Assembly (NCBI GenBank): GCA_036476895.1 | Contig: JAZGCJ010000206.1 | Span: forward strand, 1 to 29,041 | From: Thermodesulfobacteriota bacterium | GTDB taxonomy: Bacteria > Desulfobacterota_D > UBA1144 > Nemesobacterales > JAZGCJ01 | DNA: 29,041 nt | Direction: 5' to 3' | The notes under the pieces: generated by a model | Seen by the model: the letters and a program-made list of their open reading frames with translations, nothing else | What the model was told of the DNA's origin: nothing | Database searches by the model: none | Program-made: the position numbers and the translations under genes | In this document: positions 4,011-28,749 of the stretch, in pieces | Position numbering within the stretch: the stretch's first letter is position 1 | Layout: the number at the start of each line of letters is the position of its first letter

Positions 4011-5399
4011 ATGAAATTAGATTCGAAACGAAATAAGGTGAAGATGAAAGACTTAACCAAAGACGACTTAATCGATATAGAAAGGTGGGGATTTTGGCAT
4101 AGGTCATATCAATCACATTTCTTTCAGAACTTCTTAGACGTGAGACATGTGGAGGAGGTTGACTTCAGTTCTCATGTGGCACCCCATGCGGAAGGATTAT
4201 CAATTCGATTTATCCTTGAAGAATTCTTTAAGACGAAAAAGATCAAGGTTGAAAAGATAGTCAACATCGGTAACGATAGTGATTATGCCCCAAGAGTCTC
4301 AAACATTGAATATGAGAATGGAAAGTTTCGTAGTTGCTTGTTAATTGGGCAGTACATGTTGGATATTAATAAAGAGAAATATCTTTTATCGGTGGATACA
4401 TTATCTCAGGGGTTCATGGACTTTGTTTTCGTTGCACGAAAAGAAGCAAAGATTAAGGCGAAAGACCTAACAACGGACTTGACCACCTATGCTTCTTCTC
4501 ATAATTATCTGAAAGGCAAGAAGATTGATGGAGACTTAACGCTGATTGATTTGAAACGAAAGTATGGGTGGGATGATTTAATCTTAGATAAGTACACAAA
4601 TAAAGAATTACAGACTAATCTTATGAATCTGATTGATAATGTAGAAGTGTATGAGAAGAATAATCTTCCTCTCAAAAGAGGATTGATTATATCAGGAGAG
4701 CCAGGAACAGGAAAGAGTTTACTCGGAAAGATTCTGTGTCACAAGACTGACTGGACATTCATATGGGTGACACCGAAGAATTTTCATGATATTGAAAGTG
4801 TATCGAACATCATGAAAACGGCACGCATGTTAGGACCCACCATCTTATTTCTCGAAGACATTGATTTGTATGGTAAACATAGAGACCAGAATGCATTGGC
4901 TTCTTTGTTGGGGGAACTTATGAATCAGCTAGATGGAATCGAGGATAATAATTATGTCGTGACAATTGCTACGACAAATAATCAAGATGCCTTAGAGAAA
5001 GCGTTAATCAATAGACCTGGCAGGTTTGATAAGGTTATTAGATTTAACAGCCCGACGAATAAGTGCCGAGAACAAATGTTCAAAACTTTCATTGGTCATT
5101 TACGAATGGATGCGGATATTGATATGGAAGAATTGATAGACCGGACGGATAGATTGACAGGGGCACAGGTTAAAGAGGTTGTAAATCAAGCTGTTCTGCA
5201 AGCCATTGATTTTAAGTCATATGATGAGAACAAGATTCTAACGCTAAAGAAAAAGCATTTCGAGATTGCATTAAATCAGACCCGTAATAAAGACTTTAAG
5301 GCTGCGGTAGGGTTTGGGCTTGGGATAAATGGAAATGGACAAGATAATGCTGAAGTACAACCAACATATACTGAACCACCAATGGAGACGGGACCGTAA
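4011..5399 (+). CDS. AAA+ ATPase (classical AAA clade) with an unassigned 230-aa N-terminal domain
   Basis: Walker A GEPGTGKS, Walker B ILFLEDID, second region of homology TTNNQDALEKALINRPGRFD, C-terminal helical lid; GGAGG RBS. Confidence 0.9.
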   Translation: MKLDSKRNKVKMKDLTKDDLIDIERWGFWHRSYQSHFFQNFLDVRHVEEVDFSSHVAPHAEGLSIRFILEEFFKTKKIKVEKIVNIGNDSDYAPRVSNIEYENGKFRSCLLIGQYMLDINKEKYLLSVDTLSQGFMDFVFVARKEAKIKAKDLTTDLTTYASSHNYLKGKKIDGDLTLIDLKRKYGWDDLILDKYTNKELQTNLMNLIDNVEVYEKNNLPLKRGLIISGEPGTGKSLLGKILCHKTDWTFIWVTPKNFHDIESVSNIMKTARMLGPTILFLEDIDLYGKHRDQNALASLLGELMNQLDGIEDNNYVVTIATTNNQDALEKALINRPGRFDKVIRFNSPTNKCREQMFKTFIGHLRMDADIDMEELIDRTDRLTGAQVKEVVNQAVLQAIDFKSYDENKILTLKKKHFEIALNQTRNKDFKAAVGFGLGINGNGQDNAEVQPTYTEPPMETGP

Positions 5400-10055: not shown

Positions 10056-10319
10056 ATGAAAACAGGTATGACTCCAGATGGAATATTTGATTATTATGCA
10101 ATGGTTATAGAAGGTATTGGGGATCACTACAAACTGGCTCCAGGAAGAGGTGCTGATATCTTAGCAATAAATAAAGCTATAAATCGCTTAGGAGCAGGTA
10201 GTGTGGGGACTAAGAATCCAATCACGATAGATACTCAGTTGCATGAAGAATTTAAAAAGTTGATAGGGCAAATCGATAATCTTAAATACACAGAGAGAAT
10301 AGGAAACGAACAGAAATGA
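10056..10319 (+). CDS. hypothetical protein (87 aa)
   Basis: ORF; ATGA coupling downstream. Confidence 0.55.
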   Translation: MKTGMTPDGIFDYYAMVIEGIGDHYKLAPGRGADILAINKAINRLGAGSVGTKNPITIDTQLHEEFKKLIGQIDNLKYTERIGNEQK

Positions 10320-10522
10320 AGAAGCTAAGATTTTTCATCTTCGGGGCAGTCCTTAGCACAATACTAAGCAACGATTTTAACATCATGTTGCTTGATCCAA
10401 CATGGTGGATTGTAGTGGCGTTTGGATTTGTAGTTTATGCACTTATAGAATATACTCTCATTACGCCAGCAATAAAGGATTTCATAGCTTTCATGAAAAA
10501 AAGACAAAGGGGAAAGAAATGA
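10316..10522 (+). CDS. small integral membrane protein (two TM helices)
   Basis: FIFGAVLSTILS and WWIVVAFGFVVYALIEYTLI hydrophobic segments. Confidence 0.55.
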   Translation: MKKLRFFIFGAVLSTILSNDFNIMLLDPTWWIVVAFGFVVYALIEYTLITPAIKDFIAFMKKRQRGKK

Positions 10523-10866
10523 ATAAGAGAGGATGGACATTAATTGAAACCATGATCATGGTAGCAATCATCGGAATAGTGTTAGCAGTTATTATTCCGA
10601 AGGTGTTTCCAGATAAGAAGGCACAACTGGAAAGACAACAACAAGAACAAAGACTGGAAAAGGAAAAGGTTCGTACCGAGGAAAACAAGACAAATGCGGA
10701 CTACATTGTAACTCTAATGCAGGGAACACAAAAACTTCAAATCTATCATGTTACACGGTATGACTTTGAAGATGAAGGTCGTATAAGATTAACAATGTTC
10801 TCTGGTCCTGATAAACTATTAGTAATTCCCACAGGACATTATGTAGAGATTGAGGAGACACAATGA
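10519..10866 (+). CDS. type IV pilin / pseudopilin-like protein (class III prepilin signal)
   Basis: N-terminus MNKRG|WTLIETMIMVAIIGIVLAVIIP: short basic leader, Gly at -1, Glu at +5, about 20-aa hydrophobic helix (prepilin-peptidase substrate signature); ATGA coupling. Confidence 0.6.
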   Translation: MNKRGWTLIETMIMVAIIGIVLAVIIPKVFPDKKAQLERQQQEQRLEKEKVRTEENKTNADYIVTLMQGTQKLQIYHVTRYDFEDEGRIRLTMFSGPDKLLVIPTGHYVEIEETQ

Positions 10867-11192
10867 AAGAGCGACATATGTGGTTCGTCCTGATAGCATT
10901 AGTTATTGGGGCGTTAGTATTCGTTACGTCAGGGTGTTGTAAGAAAACTACAACAGAGGGTAAGACTTTAATCGACGGAACAACCGCTACAACAACCACC
11001 ACGACGCAAGGTAGTAAATATGTGAACACACGGAAGAAAAGTGGGGGGCGGTTAGAAACCGTTCATAATCAGCGTTGGTACAAAGTCTTTCGAGTTAAAG
11101 TACCTGATGGGTGGATTGTGATTTATGATGGAGCAGAGGGTGCTGGGTTGGTGGTTTATTCTGATCCCGAACATCAGTGGATATTGGATTAG
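10863..11192 (+). CDS. putative lipoprotein with Thr-rich linker
   Basis: Signal peptide MKERHMWFVLIALVIGALVFVTSGC with lipobox-like VTSGC, then TTTTTTQ linker. Confidence 0.5.
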   Translation: MKERHMWFVLIALVIGALVFVTSGCCKKTTTEGKTLIDGTTATTTTTTQGSKYVNTRKKSGGRLETVHNQRWYKVFRVKVPDGWIVIYDGAEGAGLVVYSDPEHQWILD

Positions 11193-11392
11193 AGAACTTT
11201 ATAATGCTAAAAAATAGCCATACCTTATCAGCAATAGAAAAGAACGAAATCATGACTTATCTGAAAGCTAATCCAACAGATCAAGAAGCGATTCCAGATT
11301 TGATGAAGAAATACAATTGTACTGAAACAACGATTACATGCCTTGTTATTGAGGATATGGGGTTAGACCTTGCGAAAGAAGAAAATAAATAA
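11177..11392 (+). CDS. hypothetical protein (71 aa)
   Basis: ORF in operon array. Confidence 0.5.
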   Translation: MDIGLENFIMLKNSHTLSAIEKNEIMTYLKANPTDQEAIPDLMKKYNCTETTITCLVIEDMGLDLAKEENK

Positions 11393-11642
11393 CGATAATA
11401 ATTTTGTCCGACTCTGGAAGTTCGTTCAGAGTCTCTTTTCTCCTGTTACCAGAGCAGTATATGGGTATGAACGAGAATCTATTGAGGAGTTGGTGCGTGC
11501 CTTAGAACACCAATATCAAGGGTTTACAAAAGTAAATCCTATACCTCCCTGGATGGTTGATCTGTTAAAAGAAAAGAAGAAAGGTAAACGAAAAGGGGGC
11601 AGTTCCGGTGAAACTGGCATTAGACATTCATGGAGTGATTGA
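11370..11642 (+). CDS. hypothetical protein (90 aa)
   Basis: ORF; overlaps both neighbours. Confidence 0.45.
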   Translation: MRKKKINNDNNFVRLWKFVQSLFSPVTRAVYGYERESIEELVRALEHQYQGFTKVNPIPPWMVDLLKEKKKGKRKGGSSGETGIRHSWSD

Positions 11643-11997: not shown

Positions 11998-12272
11998 TGA
12001 GTGATTGTAAATGTTCAGAACAAATAGCTCGACTGCGGATTAGGTTACGAATCCTCGAACGCTATATGGCCGAACTCATGTTGAAGAGAGATCGTCAGCA
12101 GTTACGAGATGGGGTGCCGGACGAATATAAAGAGTGGCCGTTAGATTCGTGTGAAGACTGTCATCATATACGGCAGGAACATGCCTACAATCTCTATCAT
12201 TGTCAGCGTAGGAAAGATGATGAACGATGTAAATGTAATGAGTTTATCTTTCAGGAGGTTCCGGCGGAATGA
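11997..12272 (+). CDS. Cys/His-rich small protein (putative zinc binding)
   Basis: CKC…CEDCHH…HCQ…CKC pattern; ATGA coupling. Confidence 0.5.
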   Translation: MSDCKCSEQIARLRIRLRILERYMAELMLKRDRQQLRDGVPDEYKEWPLDSCEDCHHIRQEHAYNLYHCQRRKDDERCKCNEFIFQEVPAE

Positions 12273-12787
12273 TGGATATAATCTTTGGGGCGGGTTTAGC
12301 GTCTGCGGTCTTCATATTATTTCTTTTTATTTGGACGGGCCTTTTAGACAAAGAGATTAAGCCTTTTTTACTACACAGATTTTTCTATCCGAAACTACCG
12401 TTTAAGTTTCCATATCGATATGCATTAGCGAAATGGGAGAGAGCAGAGTTTCATACGAAGAACCAATGTAGAGAAATTACGATAAAAGGTAAGGTCGCCA
12501 CTTGGTTTGGTATCTTAGAAGTTGGAGTTAAGGAGAATGGGTTATGGGGCTATACAATTTTTCTATTAAAAGGTGTTGGGACAAAAGAAGGATTTGTTCT
12601 TGAACCCGACACTGATTTAATTCGGTTGCTAAATGAGGGGAAAGACTTTTCAAGGATTTTTAAAGAGCACGAAATTGAATTACACATGGAATCGGATTTA
12701 GGGACCAAGATGAAAGAGTTAGAAACTAAAATCAATAACTTGAAAGTGATTGAGAGGATAACAGATGAAGCTGATAGAAACTCCTGA
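12269..12787 (+). CDS. hypothetical protein with N-terminal TM helix and degenerate tag (…KINNLKVIERITDEADRNS)
   Basis: 172-aa ORF. Confidence 0.55.
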   Translation: MMDIIFGAGLASAVFILFLFIWTGLLDKEIKPFLLHRFFYPKLPFKFPYRYALAKWERAEFHTKNQCREITIKGKVATWFGILEVGVKENGLWGYTIFLLKGVGTKEGFVLEPDTDLIRLLNEGKDFSRIFKEHEIELHMESDLGTKMKELETKINNLKVIERITDEADRNS

Positions 12788-13642: not shown

Positions 13643-14542
13643 ATGCCGTTCCTACTAGCGACGATAGCATTAATCGTAGGCTTGGGACTCAAGTATGGAT
13701 TGAAGAGAGGGTTTGATGGAAAAGCCTTCTCTCGTGACTTGGTTCTATTTGGGTTTATTGCCTTCGGTGTAGCTGGTGTCATTAAAGCAATCACAATCGT
13801 GGATGCGGGACACCGAGTAGTAGTGTTTGATAGAATATCAGGTGTTAAACCGGATGCCTTGGGAGAAGGATTTCATCTCATTATTCCAGGTATTCAAGAT
13901 GCATTCGCATTTGATGTTCGAACACAGAAAGTAAACATTAAAGAAAATGCAGCGTCAAAAGATATGCAAGATGTTACAACCGAGCTTGCAATTCAATATC
14001 ATCCAGTCGCATCAGCGATGCCAATCTTATATCAACAGTTTGGTATTGGATATGTTGATAAGATCGTTCCACCTGCTGTTCAAGAATCATTGAAAGCGGT
14101 TACGGCCCTTTATACGGCTGAGGAACTTATCACGAGACGTGCTGAGGTTAAAGTTGCATTACACACAGCCTTGAAGTTAAAATTAGCTGAATCAAATCTA
14201 ATGTTGGTAGATGTGTTTATTACCGACTTCAAGTTCTCCAGTGCGTTTGCAAAGGCTATTGAGAACAAGCAGGTTCAGGAGCAAAAAGCTCTGGAAGCTC
14301 AGAGAAAATTGGAAGAAGTTAAATTCCAAGCTGATCAGAAGATTGCTCAAGCTAAAGCTGAAGCTGAATCTCTTAGACTTCAAAAGTCACAAATCACTCC
14401 GAATCTATTGAAACTTCGAGAAATCGAAGTTAGAGCTAAAGCCATTGAGAAATGGAATGGTGTTCAACCACGAGTTGTTATTTCCGGTCAGGGTGGAAGT
14501 GGACTCTTGTTGAATCTTGGTGGATTAGGTACAGGAAAATAA
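13643..14542 (+). CDS. SPFH/band-7 domain membrane protein (prohibitin/HflK/C-like)
   Basis: N-terminal TM segments, band-7 core (GHRVVVFDR…, …LIIPGIQDAF…DVRTQKV…), then Ala/Glu/Gln/Lys-rich coiled coil (QEQKALEAQRKLEE…AQAKAEAE) typical of prohibitins. Confidence 0.9.
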   Translation: MPFLLATIALIVGLGLKYGLKRGFDGKAFSRDLVLFGFIAFGVAGVIKAITIVDAGHRVVVFDRISGVKPDALGEGFHLIIPGIQDAFAFDVRTQKVNIKENAASKDMQDVTTELAIQYHPVASAMPILYQQFGIGYVDKIVPPAVQESLKAVTALYTAEELITRRAEVKVALHTALKLKLAESNLMLVDVFITDFKFSSAFAKAIENKQVQEQKALEAQRKLEEVKFQADQKIAQAKAEAESLRLQKSQITPNLLKLREIEVRAKAIEKWNGVQPRVVISGQGGSGLLLNLGGLGTGK

Positions 14543-18533: not shown

Positions 18534-20360
18534 ATGAAAACATTAAAATTGTTCAATGCAGTTGTTGAGAAGAAATCAGATAAGAAACATTTTGTGTCTG
18601 AAGATGGATATGTTATTGAATCGGGGGCACTTTGGGCTAAGACCCGAATTGTTAATTACTACAAGAAAGAGGCATTGAACGGTAACGACCTGAATAAGAC
18701 TTTCCATAAGTCATGGAAAAAGATTAAAGATAGTACTCGTGGAGAATTACTTGTTCATCAGATCCTTCATTATTTGACAACTTACGGTACTGGTTTTCAA
18801 ATGGAAGCTTACATTCCTAATGAGATTGTTAAACTTCCTAAAACAAAGATTGTTTTCAAAGTGATCAAAGCATACACCAAAGAAGAATTAATTAACAAAG
18901 CTTTGAGAATGTTGAAATCAGGGATTGCTCTGAAAGAAGAAACAGTCAATGATTTGTTGTCTGTTCTTGTGGATGATCTTGATTATAAATTTACAGGTGA
19001 TGAGGGGATTAAAAATAAAGAAGCTGTCGTAAAGATTGCTGATCTTTATGGTGTTATTCCTAATGACTTCATGGGCTTCTTCCGTTACATTCTTTACAGA
19101 GCCACTGAATCAACCTTGATCATTAAGAACAAACGAACCATTGAAACTGTTCAAAAGAGTTCATACAATCCTGCTGCCCAATTTAAGAAATTTGGCTTAG
19201 CTAAAGTAGCAGAACATTTCAATAGATTTAAGCCTTTATTCTTGGCATTTAAATCTAAGTGTCCAAAAGTTATAAATAAAATCTCGAAGCTTTCGAAAAC
19301 CAATCATAAACCAATGGTTCAGAATGCTTTGAATCTTGTGACTCAGCGAAAGCTTACTGTTGATGATAATCACTGGCTTGCTAACGCAACTCTTTTTGCT
19401 TTGTTTAAAGCATTGAATGCTGTTCATCTTCGTTTGAATGGGCAGAATACGTTTCTTTATAAGATTCGTAATGGAAAGTCTTACGCTAAAGAGAGTAAAG
19501 TTACTTCTGTCAATGAGCATAATTATAACTACTTAATCAAATACTTGAAGGGTAGATTTTCATTCAATGGTAAGAAGATTTTTATTCCTGAAGATGTTGT
19601 GTATGCCCTTCCTACTTCGGAGAAAATGTTTGTTGGGAATATTCCTATGGGTTCTAAGTTCTACGGTAACAAGTTGGCTGTTGGTATTTATTGGAAGAAT
19701 TCGGGAGGAGCACGAGACCTTGATTTGTCAAGTATCAATGTTGACGGTAAGGTAGGTTGGAATAGAAGTTATTATGATGAAGACCAAAACCTTATGTTCT
19801 CAGGAGATATTACAAATGCTCCTGATGGGGCTGTTGAATATCTTCACGCCAAGAAAGGTGTAGCACATCCTACAATTGTAATGAACAATGTGTACAGTTT
19901 CTCAGGATCTGATTGGGGTGAGGATACTACAGGTAAAACTTGCAAGTATAAGATCATCATTGGTCGTGGTGATAGAATTGACAGAAAGTTTATGATGAAT
20001 CCTAATAATTTGTTCATGGAAACTAATGTTGAATCAGTTCAAGAACAATCAATTATTGGCTTGTTCTTACAGGAAGGTAAAAGACAAGCATTTGTTGTTC
20101 TTAACTTCGGAGCAGGACAAGCAAGAGTTTCTGGAGGCAATGAGCATTCTGCCACTGCTCGTGTTGCATTGACTCAGGAATGGAGTAATTCATTGTCATT
20201 CAATACGATTGTGGAAGCACTAGGTGCGAAGATTGTTCAGAAAAGTAAAGACGCTGATATTGATCTTTCTTTAAATACGTTAGAAAGGGATTCGTTTATT
20301 AAAATCTTTGAATCAAAGGGAAGTAACACTACCAAACAAAAAGTATTGGTAAAAGTGTAG
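18534..20360 (+). CDS. 608-aa protein with C-terminal TerD-like domain
   Basis: GGGAGAATCAAATG RBS. Residues ~375-560 (KLAVGIYW…ARDLDLSSINVDGKV…LMFSGDITNAPDGAVEYL…PTIVMNNVYSF…IIGLFLQEGKRQAFVVLNFGAGQ) follow the TerD block order (GlgW…DlDlSa…DGkV…hSGDn…vfvv…lfgely…AvGqG) by eye; N-terminal 370 aa unassigned. Confidence 0.8.
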   Translation: MKTLKLFNAVVEKKSDKKHFVSEDGYVIESGALWAKTRIVNYYKKEALNGNDLNKTFHKSWKKIKDSTRGELLVHQILHYLTTYGTGFQMEAYIPNEIVKLPKTKIVFKVIKAYTKEELINKALRMLKSGIALKEETVNDLLSVLVDDLDYKFTGDEGIKNKEAVVKIADLYGVIPNDFMGFFRYILYRATESTLIIKNKRTIETVQKSSYNPAAQFKKFGLAKVAEHFNRFKPLFLAFKSKCPKVINKISKLSKTNHKPMVQNALNLVTQRKLTVDDNHWLANATLFALFKALNAVHLRLNGQNTFLYKIRNGKSYAKESKVTSVNEHNYNYLIKYLKGRFSFNGKKIFIPEDVVYALPTSEKMFVGNIPMGSKFYGNKLAVGIYWKNSGGARDLDLSSINVDGKVGWNRSYYDEDQNLMFSGDITNAPDGAVEYLHAKKGVAHPTIVMNNVYSFSGSDWGEDTTGKTCKYKIIIGRGDRIDRKFMMNPNNLFMETNVESVQEQSIIGLFLQEGKRQAFVVLNFGAGQARVSGGNEHSATARVALTQEWSNSLSFNTIVEALGAKIVQKSKDADIDLSLNTLERDSFIKIFESKGSNTTKQKVLVKV

Positions 20361-27263: not shown

Positions 27264-27336
27264 GCCCATGTAACTCAGATGGTAGAGTGCCTGTTTGAAG
27301 CACAGGTGGTCGCAAGCTCGAACCTTGCCGTGGGCA
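27264..27336 (+). tRNA. tRNA-Phe (anticodon GAA)
   Basis: Manual fold: acceptor GCCCATG/CGTGGGC, D-stem ACTC/GAGT, anticodon stem CCTGT/ACAGG, loop TTGAAGC, T-stem GCAAG/CTTGC; no encoded CCA. Confidence 0.7.
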
Positions 27337-27337
27337 C

Positions 27338-27411
27338 GCCGAATTAGTACAATGGTAGTACACGTCATTGGTAATGATGAGATATGAGTTCAATTCTCGT
27401 ATTCGGCTCCA
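27338..27411 (+). tRNA. tRNA with anticodon GGU (Thr)
   Basis: Acceptor GCCGAAT/ATTCGGC, D GTAC/GTAC, anticodon stem CGTCA/TGATG, loop TTGGTAA, T-loop TTCAATT, encoded CCA. Confidence 0.65.
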
Positions 27412-27412
27412 T

Positions 27413-27486
27413 GCCACCATAGCTCAATAGTAGAGCAATGCTTTTGTAAAGCGAAGACGAGGGAGCGTTACCTTCTGGTGGCTCCA
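27413..27486 (+). tRNA. atypical tRNA, anticodon UGU (Thr) as folded
   Basis: Perfect acceptor GCCACCA/TGGTGGC and D-arm GCTC/GAGC. Anticodon stem has one mismatch (ATGCT/AGCGA); loop TTTGTAA; T-loop AGCGTTA is non-canonical; encoded CCA. Confidence 0.45.
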
Positions 27487-27491
27487 GATTT

Positions 27492-27803
27492 ATGTTCAAC
27501 AAAATAAAGCGTTGGTATATAGACTTTTGTAAAAGACATTCAACGGCTGTGGGGATTGTCGAGTTAGAAGATTATATCATTCCTTCAGGGCATTCAGTTT
27601 TTACAAATTTGCATGGTTGGTGGACTCCACCAAATGAAGTTTTAGAGTTTTGGGCAGCAGGATGCAAATATCGATACCTCAGTGATAATTGGTGGTTTAT
27701 TGACTTAGTGTTAGCATCTAAAGAAGCGGATACGGATATTGAAAAGATAAAACAGTCGTATGAGAAAGCAATTCAAGATTTTTATCGAATCAATGCTTTG
27801 TAA
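27492..27803 (+). CDS. hypothetical protein (103 aa), Trp-rich
   Basis: ATG 6 nt after the tRNA CCA; stop abuts the next tRNA. Confidence 0.55.
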   Translation: MFNKIKRWYIDFCKRHSTAVGIVELEDYIIPSGHSVFTNLHGWWTPPNEVLEFWAAGCKYRYLSDNWWFIDLVLASKEADTDIEKIKQSYEKAIQDFYRINAL

Positions 27804-27877
27804 GCCTCAATAGTTTAATGGAAGAATTCTCGTTTCGTAATCGAGGGATGCCAGTCCGATTCTGGCTTGAGGCTCCA
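27804..27877 (+). tRNA. tRNA, anticodon CGU (Thr) as folded
   Basis: Acceptor GCCTCAA/TTGAGGC, T-arm GCCAG-TCCGATT-CTGGC, anticodon stem CTCGT/TCGAG with U:U at 31:39, loop TTCGTAA; weak D-stem; encoded CCA. Confidence 0.5.
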
Positions 27878-27970
27878 GATTTTCGTCGCCGGAGACCCTT
27901 TTCACCCTTTCGAGGTCTTGTGGACTTCAAAGGCGAAGGGTTGTCAGAAGTCTGACGGTGACACTAATTT

Positions 27971-28312
27971 ATGAATCGATTCGAAAAAGTCCGAGACTTA
28001 GTTAAAGATATAGCAGCTAGGAAATGTAACAAAATTGACGAATACAATAATTTTGTTACAACTTTTCCGACAATTATCAGCATATATGTTGAACATATGA
28101 AATTCTGTAAAGAAAAAGAAAGTCCAATCTTCACTCATCATACTGCAAGAATATCTACGAAACAAGCAAATGAGTTAAGAGAGGAGTGGAGAGATGAATT
28201 TATCAAAACGTGTAAATATCCACACTATAATTTAAACAATTTAGAAATTATTGAACTGCACGATTTATTAGTAAAGTTAAAATTTTTAGAATCAACAAAT
28301 TTGGGGCTGTAG
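27971..28312 (+). CDS. NNLEAID-tag family protein (…KYPHYNLNNLEIIELHDLLVKLKFL…)
   Basis: Conserved module; TAG stop overlaps the first bases of tRNA-Ala. Confidence 0.55.
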   Translation: MNRFEKVRDLVKDIAARKCNKIDEYNNFVTTFPTIISIYVEHMKFCKEKESPIFTHHTARISTKQANELREEWRDEFIKTCKYPHYNLNNLEIIELHDLLVKLKFLESTNLGL

Positions 28313-28379
28313 CTCAATTAGGGAGAGCACTCCGCTTGCAACGGAAAGGTTGTGGGTTCGATTCCCACTAGCTCCACCA
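28303..28379 (+). tRNA. tRNA-Ala (anticodon UGC) with G3:U70
   Basis: Acceptor GGGGCTG/TAGCTCC gives the G3:U70 alanine identity pair; anticodon loop CTTGCAA; T-arm GTGGG-TTCGATT-CCCAC; encoded CCA. Confidence 0.8.
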
Positions 28380-28384
28380 ATTTT

Positions 28385-28534
28385 ATGAAAAGACGAACAC
28401 TTGAAATCATCTTATGGATTATTTTACCCTTCTGGATGATAGCAGCAGATTATGTTGCTGTAGATGGATTTCATACGAAACTTATTATGAAGAAAGTTTC
28501 TCAAATTTATGAGACAATTAAAAGTAGGAGATAA
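28385..28534 (+). CDS. small membrane protein (49 aa)
   Basis: ATG 6 nt after the tRNA CCA; IILWIILPFWMIAADYVAV. Confidence 0.35.
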   Translation: MKRRTLEIILWIILPFWMIAADYVAVDGFHTKLIMKKVSQIYETIKSRR

Positions 28535-28675
28535 AGTTTATTCGCTATATTTCAATCAAGAGATCACAATCGTGAAGATTGTAGATGATAATAACTGGGA
28601 GTTTGAGATCCAAGGTCATATTGAGAAAGCAAAAACTCCGCTATCATATTTTGAACGAAAAGCGAAATAATTTCT

Positions 28676-28749
28676 GGTTGTATGGTGTAGTGGCAGCACG
28701 TTAGCCTGTCAAGCTAAAAGTGGGGGTCCAATTCCCCCTATGACCGCCA
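28676..28749 (+). tRNA. tRNA-Asp (anticodon GUC)
   Basis: Acceptor GGTTGTA/TATGACC, D GTGT/GCAC, anticodon stem TTAGC/GCTAA, loop CTGTCAA, T-arm GGGGG-TCCAATT-CCCCC, encoded CCA. Confidence 0.75.

What the first reader, a model, noticed from the sequence alone, without database searches (positions are those of the whole stretch)
10316..11192. Type IV pilin/pseudopilin-like gene flanked by a two-TM protein and a Thr-rich lipoprotein
ORF 10519-10866 begins MNKRG|WTLIETMIMVAIIGIVLAVIIP, a textbook class-III prepilin signal (Gly-1, Glu+5) of type IV pilins, T2SS pseudopilins and ComG competence pilins. It would need the host prepilin peptidase. It is coupled upstream to a two-TM protein (10316-10522) and downstream to a lipobox-bearing secreted protein with a poly-Thr linker (10863-11192). 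A plausible role is interference with, or hijacking of, host type IV pilus / competence pilus / T2SS assembly, for example superinfection exclusion of pilus-dependent phages or blocking DNA uptake.
Basis: partly seen in the sequence, partly recalled or inferred. Interest (0 to 1): 0.6.

Follow-up and report, generated by a model that had tools for sequence, protein, structure and literature searches.

The report
Phage mini-pilin in envelope gene cassette
A large uncultured phage carries a small, dispensable four-gene cassette whose central protein starts with a genuine pilin-type signal and is followed by a lipoprotein; such phage "mini-pilins" are common, often sit beside phage SPFH (prohibitin-like) membrane-scaffold genes, and have no tested function.

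Summary
ORFs 10316-10522, 10519-10866 and 10863-11192 exist, overlap by ATGA, and evolve under purifying selection, as does the upstream ORF 10056-10319. The 115-aa protein has a true class III (prepilin) signal: Gly-1, Glu+5, Gly+14, Pro+22. Its Pfam N_methyl score is just below threshold only because +1 is Trp. A Trp-to-Phe change or the orthologue passes; Glu5-to-Gln removes the hit.

It is not a canonical pilin. After the hydrophobic helix come a very charged helix and a small beta domain with no recognisable pilin fold. An exhaustive search found one distant full-length homologue.

The window is a phage contig binned in a Thermodesulfobacteriota MAG. A close relative shows a deletion scar where the cassette should be, so it is accessory.

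An unexpected result is that short class-III-signal ORFs are frequent in viral contigs and lie next to SPFH/Band-7 genes far more often than chance. This includes cultured Aeromonas T4-like phage 44RR2.8t (SPFH, then mini-pilin, then lipoprotein). The window has an SPFH gene 2.8 kb downstream.

The function is unresolved. Interference with type IV filaments (superinfection exclusion) is my leading reading. An SPFH-linked envelope module and a spanin pair are live rivals.

The parts
10056..10319 (+). 87-aa soluble protein, the first gene of the translationally coupled cassette. It is a paralogue of the C-terminal part of ORF 12269-12787.
   Evidence: ATGA overlap with the next gene. Homologues in L022 (47% aa identity, dN/dS 0.28) and L021 (49%). 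No Pfam, PHROG or PADLOC hit.
10316..10522 (+). 68-aa inner-membrane protein with two hydrophobic segments and a basic C-terminal tail (KKRQRGKK).
   Evidence: Hydropathy. Orthologue P0044 in L022 is 68% identical with dN/dS 0.17. Only its first ~13 codons survive in the deletion variant L021.
10519..10866 (+). 115-aa class III (prepilin-type) signal protein, a 'mini-pilin'. Leader MNKRG is 10519-10533, with the predicted cleavage after Gly5. The hydrophobic alpha1-N helix (W+1 to P+22) is 10534-10599. A highly charged helix spans ~10600-10698. A small beta-rich C-terminal domain spans ~10699-10863.
   Evidence: profiles and in-silico mutants; AF2: helices 8-29 and 33-55, beta hairpin 59-80; best PDB hits are Geobacter-type truncated pilins; orthologue fragments; distant homologue P0009.
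10863..11192 (+). 109-aa predicted lipoprotein. The signal plus lipobox ends at Cys25 (codon 10935-10937). A variable Thr-rich linker spans ~10938-11048. A conserved beta-rich C-terminal module (RVKVPDGW...YSDPEHQW) spans ~11049-11189.
   Evidence: orthologue P0003 keeps the lipobox and C-terminal module but not the poly-Thr; all-beta C-terminus, low confidence; the module belongs to a widespread unannotated bacterial small-domain family, flotillin-adjacent in Verrucomicrobia.
11370..11642 (+). 90-aa protein that follows the lipoprotein gene in relative L001 and is lost together with the cassette in L021. It may be a fifth member.
13643..14542 (+). 299-aa SPFH/Band-7 (prohibitin-family) membrane protein. 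It is linked to the cassette by comparative genomics, not by adjacency in this window.
   Evidence: Pfam Band_7 E=5e-32; phrog_200. SPFH genes lie directly beside class-III-signal ORFs in many viral loci and in Aeromonas phage 44RR2.8t.

Best explanation
ORF 10519-10866 is a genuine phage-encoded prepilin-type protein, a mini-pilin. It is made early as part of a dispensable four-gene envelope cassette: soluble 87-aa protein, 2-TM protein, mini-pilin, outer-membrane lipoprotein.

Shown:
- It has the complete class III signal.
- That signal is the most constrained part of the protein across relatives.
- The cassette genes are coupled and under purifying selection.
- The cassette can be lost en bloc.

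Inferred mechanism:
- The protein inserts in the inner membrane through its alpha1-N helix.
- The host prepilin peptidase cuts it after Gly5.
- Because it has the pilin assembly helix (Glu5, Gly14, Pro22) but no pilin head, it enters or blocks the host type IV filament machinery (T4P or T2SS pseudopilus) as a non-productive or capping subunit.
- The co-translated lipoprotein binds its small periplasmic beta domain.
- The result is that the infected cell loses or masks pili, or blocks the secretin route. That would exclude pilus-dependent superinfecting phages or stop progeny being wasted on infected cells.
- It probably acts within a membrane patch organised by the phage SPFH protein.
For: - Class III signature: NCBIfam hits to GspH, PilA, GspG and ComGE N-termini reach E~1e-6.
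- Pfam N_methyl scores 19.9 bits for the full length, 23.4 for the first 34 aa alone, 27.5 with W+1 changed to F and 34.4 for orthologue L022. The hit is lost with E5 changed to Q.
- The best PDB hits are Geobacter-type truncated pilins, consistent with the Thermodesulfobacteriota bin.
- The signature is retained in L022 and in the 38%-identical homologue P0009 while the rest diverges.
- The cassette is accessory. L021 keeps the flanking genes and a 16-codon ORF whose first ~13 codons match the 2-TM gene, but lacks the cassette.
- Published precedent: prophage P-FimU is incorporated into the pilus and blocks tip-binding phages. PilA-like and 60-aa truncated PilA genes occur in virulent phages and are proposed to act this way (PMC12952977).
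- Short class-III-signal ORFs are widespread in viral contigs: 80 unique, median 95 aa.
Against: - No experiment and no host genome are available.
- The C-terminal part shows no pilin fold. AF2 pLDDT is 58, and no Pfam or PDB similarity extends beyond about residue 50.
- Trp at +1 is unusual: 0 of 80 viral mini-pilins have it although the search pattern allowed it.
- Pilus interference does not by itself explain the strong linkage of mini-pilins to SPFH genes.
- It also does not explain the flotillin-adjacent relatives of the lipoprotein domain.
- The same gene order fits a spanin pair.
- No other pilus, T2SS or prepilin-peptidase gene was found in the window, but only the ten largest ORFs and the cassette ORFs were searched against Pfam, plus one six-frame motif scan.
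Confidence: 0.4

Rival explanations
1. SPFH-linked envelope module. The mini-pilin and the lipoprotein are partners or clients of the phage SPFH (prohibitin/HflKC-like) scaffold, not of pili. The class III signal serves as a peptidase-trimmed, easily extractable single-helix anchor. The complex remodels or protects the inner membrane and periplasm during infection. Possible outputs are control of FtsH or translocon activity, lysis timing, or a block to incoming DNA.
For: - SPFH genes lie directly beside class-III ORFs in 7-8 of 94 viral mini-pilin loci.
- In the reverse test, all 6 class-III ORFs found in 80 viral SPFH loci are immediate same-strand neighbours of the SPFH gene. About 0.4 are expected, P~6e-5.
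- The only distant full-length homologue, P0009, is directly downstream of an SPFH gene.
- The window encodes an SPFH protein at 13643-14542.
- Cultured Aeromonas phage 44RR2.8t has SPFH (ORF098c), then a 72-aa N_methyl protein (ORF097c), then a DUF1190 protein with a lipobox (ORF096c). The mini-pilin occurs in 38 cultured phage records, 36 of them Aeromonas.
- The lipoprotein's C-terminal module has relatives encoded 4 nt after, or overlapping, flotillin genes. One sits in an NfeD-flotillin-X operon.
- Unprocessed prepilins are known to associate with SecY and trigger SecY/YidC degradation (PMC8546353).
Against: - In this window the SPFH gene is 2.8 kb away with about 8 genes between.
- L021 keeps the SPFH gene but has lost the cassette, so the SPFH protein does not need it.
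- Most viral SPFH loci (74 of 80) and most mini-pilin loci have no such neighbour. The two cultured SPFH phages I inspected have none.
- There is no NfeD-domain similarity.
- The flotillin linkage of the lipoprotein module is confined to one bacterial clade.
- No mechanism is known that links SPFH proteins to class III signals (literature searches).
Confidence: 0.27
2. Lysis genes. ORF 10519-10866 is an i-spanin (N-terminal membrane anchor plus periplasmic helix) and ORF 10863-11192 is its outer-membrane lipoprotein o-spanin, in the T4-like 'separated' arrangement. The upstream 2-TM protein would be a class II holin or antiholin. The pilin-like N-terminus would then be just the anchor.
For: - The gene order, sizes and topologies match. 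T4 PseT.3 is 117 aa and PseT.2 is 83 aa, and they lie away from holin and endolysin (PMC6139136).
- There is a variable linker plus a conserved C-terminal domain in the lipoprotein, as in T4 o-spanins.
- There is a charged helix after the TM segment.
- The 68-aa 2-TM protein has a basic tail.
- A second phage-like contig (L003) also has mini-pilins followed by a lipoprotein.
Against: - A plain anchor would not keep Gly-1, Thr2, Leu3, Glu5, Gly14 and Pro22 across 38-65% identical relatives.
- 96% of two-component spanins have at least one periplasmic Cys, and a lone Cys lies near the interface. Here the mini-pilin has none. The lipoprotein has only Cys26, next to the lipidated Cys. The L001 orthologue has none.
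- There is no similarity to any spanin, holin or endolysin family, and no endolysin was recognised in the window.
- The cassette is deleted in a close relative.
- Only about 4 of 94 viral mini-pilins are followed by a lipoprotein gene.
Confidence: 0.13
3. Split-pilin mimic. The pair imitates the Geobacter-type PilA-N / PilA-C split pilin of Thermodesulfobacteriota hosts, where a truncated pilin gene is followed by a signal-peptide beta-sheet protein gene. It would form a hybrid subunit in the host filament.
For: - The best PDB matches are geopilin domain 1 proteins (9egp_A E=2.6e-5; also 7tgg and 2m7g/6vk9).
- The MAG bin is Thermodesulfobacteriota.
Against: - The lipoprotein has no detectable similarity to any solved structure, PilA-C included, or to any NCBIfam or Pfam family.
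- Its conserved domain is only about 45 aa, against 111 aa for GSU1497.
- The mini-pilin has its own beta domain.
- The N-terminal similarity is generic to type IVa pilins.
- Host assignment from binning is weak.
Confidence: 0.05

Closest known systems
Phage-encoded pilins: P-FimU of F10-like Pseudomonas prophages, and the PilA-like or 60-aa truncated PilA proteins of virulent phages (Sztanko et al., Cell Rep 2026, PMC12952977); PHROG 3433 'pilin'
   Same: A phage gene with a class III signal peptide. The proposed or demonstrated role is superinfection exclusion through the host type IV pilus. The truncated forms also lack a head domain. The window protein hits phrog_3433 over its N-terminus (E=8e-5).
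   Different: P-FimU has a full minor-pilin fold, complements fimU and is encoded by a prophage. The window protein has no pilin head, has an unrelated beta domain after a charged helix, has Trp at +1, sits in a large virulent-type phage, and is coupled to a 2-TM protein and a lipoprotein.
Aeromonas T4-like phage 44RR2.8t/31/25 module ORF098c (SPFH) - ORF097c (72-aa N_methyl protein) - ORF096c (DUF1190 protein with a lipobox), between tk and rI (Nolan et al. 2006, PMC1524935; NC_005135)
   Same: A virulent large phage. A short class-III-signal protein is immediately followed by a lipoprotein gene, with an SPFH gene in the same region, all in a hyperplastic region of small genes.
   Different: There is no sequence similarity beyond the signal peptide, and the lipoprotein belongs to a different family (DUF1190). 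There the SPFH gene is directly adjacent; here it is 2.8 kb away. That module also has no tested function.
Two-component spanins of the T4 type (PseT.3 / PseT.2)
   Same: A small N-terminally anchored periplasmic protein gene is followed by a small outer-membrane lipoprotein gene. The sizes are similar, the location is away from other lysis genes, and the lipoprotein has a variable linker.
   Different: The pilin-type signal is conserved. The usual periplasmic cysteines are missing. There is no homology to spanins. The cassette is dispensable in a relative.
Type II secretion pseudopilins (GspG/GspH) and competence minor pilins (ComGE). NCBI names this protein 'type II secretion system protein'.
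   Same: The N-terminal 45 residues align with GspH, GspG and ComGE profiles at E~1e-6, including the IPK motif after Pro22. The small size is like ComGE and GspI.
   Different: Scores are far below every family cutoff (28 bits against 49-400). The similarity is to the shared N-terminal helix only. No T2SS or Com genes were found nearby among the ORFs searched.
Geobacter truncated pilin PilA-N ('geopilin domain 1') with the adjacent PilA-C gene
   Same: It is the best solved-structure match. A short pilin gene is followed by a gene for a signal-peptide beta protein. It is from the same phylum as the MAG bin.
   Different: The partner proteins are unrelated, and the window protein carries its own extra domain.
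SPFH-NfeD operons (stomatin/flotillin with a small membrane partner that has a C-terminal beta domain)
   Same: An SPFH gene is paired with a small membrane-anchored protein ending in a small beta domain. L200 shows NfeD, then flotillin, then a relative of the lipoprotein module.
   Different: No NfeD (PF01957) similarity in the mini-pilin or the lipoprotein. The class III signal is not a feature of NfeD proteins.

Membership tests
Prepilin-type (class III signal peptide) proteins: Pfam PF07963 N_methyl / TIGR02532 | Short basic leader ending in Gly at -1 | tested here: met
   MNKR-G, a 5-residue leader. Conserved in L022 (MNKKG) and P0009 (MNKKG).
Prepilin-type (class III signal peptide) proteins: Pfam PF07963 N_methyl / TIGR02532 | Glu at +5 within G|xTLIE | tested here: met
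   The sequence is G|WTLIE. An in-silico E5Q change removes the N_methyl hit altogether.
Prepilin-type (class III signal peptide) proteins: Pfam PF07963 N_methyl / TIGR02532 | About 20-residue hydrophobic alpha1-N helix with the type IVa kink residues Gly14 and Pro22 | tested here: met
   The mature N-terminus is WTLIETMIMVAIIG14IVLAVIIP22. AF2 gives a helix at 8-29 with block pLDDT 84-94. Gly14 and Pro22 are conserved in L022 and P0009.
Prepilin-type (class III signal peptide) proteins: Pfam PF07963 N_methyl / TIGR02532 | Score at or above the curated family threshold | tested here: inconclusive
   Full length scores 19.9 bits against GA 21.2, and TIGR02532 scores 15.4 against 16.3. The first 34 aa alone score 23.4, the W+1F version 27.5, orthologue L022 34.4 and P0009 30.9.
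Prepilin-type (class III signal peptide) proteins: Pfam PF07963 N_methyl / TIGR02532 | Phe (or Met) at +1 as the methylated residue | tested here: not met
   Residue +1 is Trp. The orthologue L022 has Phe. 0 of 80 viral mini-pilins have Trp although the search pattern allowed it. P0007 also has G|W. That +1 substitutions are tolerated by PilD is from my own knowledge (Strom & Lory 1991) and was not tested.
Prepilin-type (class III signal peptide) proteins: Pfam PF07963 N_methyl / TIGR02532 | Cleavage and N-methylation by a prepilin peptidase | not testable with these tools
   This needs expression in PilD+ and PilD- hosts. No prepilin peptidase gene was found among the window ORFs searched.
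Type IV pilins / pseudopilins proper (structural subunits) | Amphipathic alpha1-C packed on a C-terminal antiparallel beta-sheet head domain | tested here: not met
   Residues 28-60 are almost entirely charged or polar. AF2 pLDDT is below 60 after residue 40. No Pfam, NCBIfam or PDB similarity extends beyond about residue 50.
Type IV pilins / pseudopilins proper (structural subunits) | Encoded with, or dependent on, assembly genes (PilB/GspE ATPase, PilC/GspF platform, secretin) | tested here: not met
   No such gene was found among the ORFs searched. The only ATPase is a generic AAA+ protein. Host genes cannot be examined.
Two-component spanins | i-spanin with an N-terminal TMD, followed by an o-spanin gene with a lipobox | tested here: met
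   The genes overlap by 4 nt.
Two-component spanins | At least one periplasmic Cys near the interaction site, for an intermolecular disulfide (507 of 528 systems) | tested here: not met
   The mini-pilin has 0 Cys. The lipoprotein has only Cys26, adjacent to the lipidated Cys25. Orthologue P0003 has none.
Two-component spanins | Sequence similarity to a known spanin family, or linkage to holin and endolysin genes | tested here: not met
   No PHROG or Pfam spanin, holin or endolysin hit. The cassette is deleted in L021.
Two-component spanins | Complements an Rz/Rz1 lysis defect | not testable with these tools
   An experiment is required.
SPFH partner proteins (NfeD-like) | Gene adjacent to an SPFH gene | tested here: inconclusive
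   In the window the gap is 2.8 kb. Homologue P0009 is adjacent. Many other viral mini-pilins are adjacent.
SPFH partner proteins (NfeD-like) | NfeD C-terminal OB-fold domain (PF01957) | tested here: not met
   No hit even at E<=1.

The most novel reading that the evidence does not exclude
SPFH protein, class-III-signal mini-pilin and lipoprotein form a previously unrecognised, widespread phage envelope system. It is present from Aeromonas T4-like phages to this uncultured phage. In it the prepilin signal is used not to build a pilus but as a peptidase-processed, extractable anchor for a periplasmic complex assembled inside an SPFH membrane microdomain. The complex would control a step such as superinfection exclusion, translocon or FtsH activity, or lysis timing.
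Probability: 0.25. Interest if true: 0.75.

Novelty: new variant of a known kind. Interest (0 to 1): 0.5.

Why it matters
Phage genes that imitate pilus subunits have only just been shown to work, as receptor-masking defences (P-FimU). This case extends the picture in two ways.

- Virulent-type phages carry stripped-down mini-pilins. These keep only the assembly helix and add unrelated small domains and partner proteins.
- These genes are non-randomly tied to phage SPFH scaffold genes, which are themselves common in phages (382 and 740 cultured phage records in two searches) and have no known function there.

The same arrangement exists in cultured Aeromonas T4-like phages. The question of what mini-pilins and phage SPFH proteins do is therefore directly testable by knockouts and PilD-dependence assays. 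For annotation, the NCBI name 'type II secretion system protein' is misleading for this phage gene.

Tried and rejected
Searches that found nothing:
- Megablast and tblastn of the region and of the protein against cultured phages found no match.
- Exact-protein contig look-up found nothing on record.
- The search for related loci with the mini-pilin found no relative in viral, genome or metagenome collections.
- The word-indexed homology search found only the protein itself.
- The exhaustive phmmer search found one credible full-length relative, P0009. All other hits match the N-terminus only.

Predictions and scans that gave no usable answer:
- AF2 models of the mini-pilin (pLDDT 58) and the lipoprotein (pLDDT 49) were too poor for fold searches, so none were run.
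- PADLOC gave no hit for any cassette protein or for the SPFH protein.
- The promoter/terminator scan was no better than shuffles and defined no operon ends.

Specific ideas tested and dropped:
- The Geobacter PilA-C analogy: the lipoprotein has no similarity to any solved structure.
- NfeD analogy: no PF01957 hit.
- The 2-TM protein is not similar to the 2-TM protein upstream of the SPFH gene in L100.
- Bacterial relatives of the lipoprotein module have no class-III ORF nearby.
- 'Mini-pilin followed by lipoprotein' is not a general rule: about 4 of 94 loci.
- Two cultured SPFH phages (Burkholderia CSP3, Pseudomonas SYP) have no mini-pilin beside the SPFH gene.
- A chance transmembrane helix was rejected, given 0 motif matches in 300 shuffles, the dependence of the profile hit on Glu5, and conservation of the signature in relatives.
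Full report
**What is there**

The window is an all-plus-strand array of small ORFs with five tRNA genes at 27.2-28.7 kb. It has no nucleotide match to cultured phages. It does carry phage-type genes:
- a phosphoesterase (phrog_547);
- an SPFH protein (phrog_200);
- an AAA+ ATPase;
- a 608-aa protein shared with Synechococcus phages S-CRM01 and S-CBWM1, phage Phass-1 and 16 IMG/VR contigs.

NCBI holds it as a 29,041-nt contig of a Thermodesulfobacteriota MAG. The same proteins also occur on a 78,757-nt contig. I read it as part of a large phage genome whose host assignment rests only on binning.

**The observation**

The three ORFs are exactly as described.
- ORF 10519-10866 begins MNKRG|WTLIETMIMVAIIGIVLAVIIP.
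- ORF 10316-10522 has two hydrophobic segments and a basic tail.
- ORF 10863-11192 has a lipobox ending at Cys25.

The start and stop codons overlap as ATGA at 10316, 10519 and 10863. The cassette therefore has four coupled genes, including 10056-10319.

Three short metagenomic contigs carry relatives:
- L022 has the 87-aa gene, the 2-TM gene and the start of the mini-pilin.
- L001 has the end of the mini-pilin, the lipoprotein gene and a homologue of 11370-11642.
- L021 is a deletion variant.

Pairwise dN/dS is 0.17-0.37 for all four genes, and the ATGA overlaps are kept. The genes are real.

**Is the N-terminus a prepilin signal or just a TM helix?**

It is the only such motif in six frames of the window, and none appears in 300 shuffles. 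NCBIfam models for GspH, Myxococcus PilA, GspG and ComGE match residues 2-48 at E~1e-6. Four PHROGs, one of them named 'pilin', match the same stretch.

Pfam N_methyl gives 19.9 bits against a threshold of 21.2. Controls explain the shortfall:
- the first 34 residues alone score 23.4;
- changing Trp+1 to Phe gives 27.5;
- the orthologue in L022 (MNKKG|FTLVELMIIVSIVGILLSVAIPKIFPDKE) scores 34.4;
- changing Glu5 to Gln removes the hit.

Gly-1, Thr2, Leu3, Glu5, Gly14 and Pro22 are kept in L022 and in the 38%-identical P0009, while most other positions vary. The best solved-structure matches are the truncated 'geopilin domain 1' pilins of Geobacter relatives. I conclude that the class III signal is genuine and under specific selection.

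**It is not an ordinary pilin**

After Pro22 comes a stretch of about 30 almost wholly charged residues, then about 55 residues predicted as beta strands. AF2 confidence is low beyond residue 40. No profile or PDB similarity reaches past residue 50.

An exhaustive phmmer search of 1.84 billion representatives found only one other protein aligned along the whole length: P0009, from forest soil. Trp at +1 is rare: 0 of 80 unique viral mini-pilins have it, although the search pattern allowed it.

**The lipoprotein**

The signal, the lipobox and a C-terminal module (RVKVPDGW...YSDPEHQW) are conserved in the orthologue P0003. The Thr-rich linker is not.

The module belongs to a broad, unannotated bacterial family ('AKVPGGW...FYPDPxHxW'), found in 27 genome loci across five phyla. 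In the verrucomicrobial loci L213, L214, L216 and L220, and in the unassigned metagenome contig L200, the gene starts 4 nt after, or overlaps, a flotillin gene. L200 reads NfeD-like, then flotillin, then this module.

**The cassette is dispensable**

L021 has an SPFH protein in the same 90% identity cluster as the window's and 85% DNA identity there. In L021 the 87-aa gene is followed by 'MKKLRFWILVAITGPG*'. The first ~13 codons of this ORF match the start of the 2-TM gene. Directly after it comes the gene that in L001 lies downstream of the lipoprotein and the g90 homologue.

The 2-TM gene, the mini-pilin, the lipoprotein and g90 were therefore lost en bloc. One caveat applies: L021 also shows apparent frameshifts, so it may be a poor assembly or a decaying variant.

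**An unexpected link to SPFH genes**

A DNA-pattern scan of IMG/VR for K-G-[F/W/L/C]-T-L-[I/V]-E-x-M-I returned 97 stretches. Of these, 94 begin an ORF with a class III signal. There are 80 unique proteins with a median length of 95 aa, and 42 are 100 aa or shorter.

- In 7-8 of these loci an SPFH/Band-7 gene is the immediate neighbour.
- In the reverse test, among the 80 best of 366 viral SPFH loci, six have a class-III ORF within 3 kb. All six are the immediate same-strand neighbour of the SPFH gene. The expectation is about 0.4, P~6e-5, even using a background rate inflated by this very lineage.
- P0009 lies directly downstream of an SPFH gene.
- The window has an SPFH gene at 13643-14542.

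One of the viral loci (L116) is identical to Aeromonas T4-like phage 44RR2.8t. There ORF098c (SPFH), ORF097c (a 72-aa N_methyl protein) and ORF096c (a DUF1190 protein with a lipobox) lie in a row between tk and rI. The two Pfam hits were tabulated in 2006 without comment (PMC1524935). The mini-pilin is present in 38 cultured phage records, 36 of them Aeromonas.

I found no paper linking SPFH proteins to pilins or phage pilin-like genes. The searchable library is incomplete, so this is not proof of novelty.

**Mechanism**

Three readings remain.

(a) Interference with type IV filaments. A subunit with the assembly helix but no head could cap, poison or mask host pili or the T2SS pseudopilus. 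That would give superinfection exclusion.
- It has a direct precedent in P-FimU, and in the PilA-like and truncated PilA genes of virulent phages (PMC12952977).
- It explains why the signal is so constrained.
- It fits an accessory cassette of small envelope proteins.

(b) An SPFH-linked envelope module. This is the only reading that explains the adjacency statistics and the flotillin-linked relatives of the lipoprotein module. However, it has no known mechanism, the genes are not adjacent here, and L021 keeps the SPFH gene without the cassette. Unprocessed prepilins are known to bind SecY and trigger SecY/YidC degradation (PMC8546353), which offers one conceivable route.

(c) A T4-like i-spanin/o-spanin pair with a holin-like 2-TM protein. 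The topology and sizes fit. Four things argue against it:
- the conserved pilin signature;
- the absence of the periplasmic cysteines seen in 96% of spanins;
- the lack of any lysis-gene similarity;
- the deletion variant.

I put (a) at 0.40, (b) at 0.27, (c) at 0.13 and a Geobacter-style split-pilin mimic at 0.05. The rest goes to something not considered. Readings (a) and (b) are not exclusive.

**Comparison and novelty**

The protein meets the sequence definition of a prepilin-type signal protein but fails the structural definition of a pilin or pseudopilin. The NCBI name 'type II secretion system protein' overstates what is known.

Phage pilin-like genes are a known kind. This one is a new variant:
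- a head-less mini-pilin with a private C-terminal domain;
- coupled to a 2-TM protein and a lipoprotein;
- in a virulent-type phage.

The SPFH association is the more interesting lead, and it can be tested in cultured Aeromonas phages.

Noticed in passing
window 13643-14542; viral loci L033/L120, L043, L080, L092, L100, L114, L116, L146, L164, L175, L180, L182; L002: Short class-III-signal ('mini-pilin') ORFs lie immediately beside SPFH/Band-7 genes in many unrelated viral contigs. Tested both ways, P~6e-5. The window itself encodes an SPFH protein 2.8 kb from its mini-pilin.
   Followed up: partly
L231 (Aeromonas phage 44RR2.8t NC_005135, record 52.7-56.2 kb) = L116: A cultured T4-like phage has SPFH (ORF098c), then a 72-aa N_methyl protein (ORF097c), then a DUF1190 protein with a lipobox (ORF096c), and further on a YgiC-like glutathionylspermidine synthase (ORF093c), all between tk and rI. 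The mini-pilin is in 38 cultured phage records, and this SPFH family is in 740. This is a tractable system for experiments.
   Followed up: partly
L021 positions ~370-430 (JGI contig Ga0247389_10054483): A deletion scar. The first ~13 codons of the 2-TM gene are followed by a stop and then the gene that lies downstream of the cassette in L001. L021 also shows apparent frameshifts in two neighbouring genes.
   Followed up: yes
window 11049-11189; L200 4631-4891; L202-L228: The C-terminal module of the lipoprotein belongs to a widespread, unannotated bacterial small-domain family ('AKVPGGW...FYPDPxHxW', proteins of 55-150 aa, five phyla). It follows a flotillin gene in Verrucomicrobia and in an NfeD-flotillin operon (L200).
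   Followed up: partly
L023-L119 (IMG/VR): Several recurring families of viral mini-pilins have small Cys-containing C-termini, for example '...NGMTEIRCIDGYRFV', '...CISQGGKWSEGIQYGR' and '...GERTGVVxKLSxKG'. Many others have a charged helix right after the hydrophobic helix, as in the window protein.
   Followed up: no
L003 759-2183 (Logan contig ERR12084952_269620): A phage-like contig with NAD-salvage genes has four genes in a row: a TM protein, a mini-pilin with KKA|FTLVE, a mini-pilin with KKG|WTLVE (Trp at +1, as in the window) and a lipoprotein. The first two share a Cys/His C-terminal domain.
   Followed up: no
window 10056-10319 and 12269-12787: The 87-aa first gene of the cassette is paralogous to the C-terminal part of the 172-aa TM protein 2 kb downstream. 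Both match the same L021 ORF.
   Followed up: no
window 18534-20360; L005-L020: A 608-aa protein with no family hit is conserved (29-60% identity) in 16 viral contigs and in Synechococcus phages S-CRM01 and S-CBWM1 and gut phage Phass-1. In L013 it is directly followed by an 86-aa mini-pilin. In L008 it is followed, two genes on, by a degenerate pilin-like ORF (GFTLNG, no Glu5), then TM proteins and an SPFH gene.
   Followed up: partly
window 4011-5399: A 462-aa AAA+ ATPase whose best PADLOC match is IetA (E=2e-21), the ATPase of the Ietswaart defence system, here inside a phage contig.
   Followed up: no
window 27264-28749: A cluster of five tRNA genes (Phe-GAA, Thr-GGT, Thr-CGT, Ala-TGC, Asp-GTC) interspersed with small ORFs, typical of large virulent phages.
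   Followed up: no
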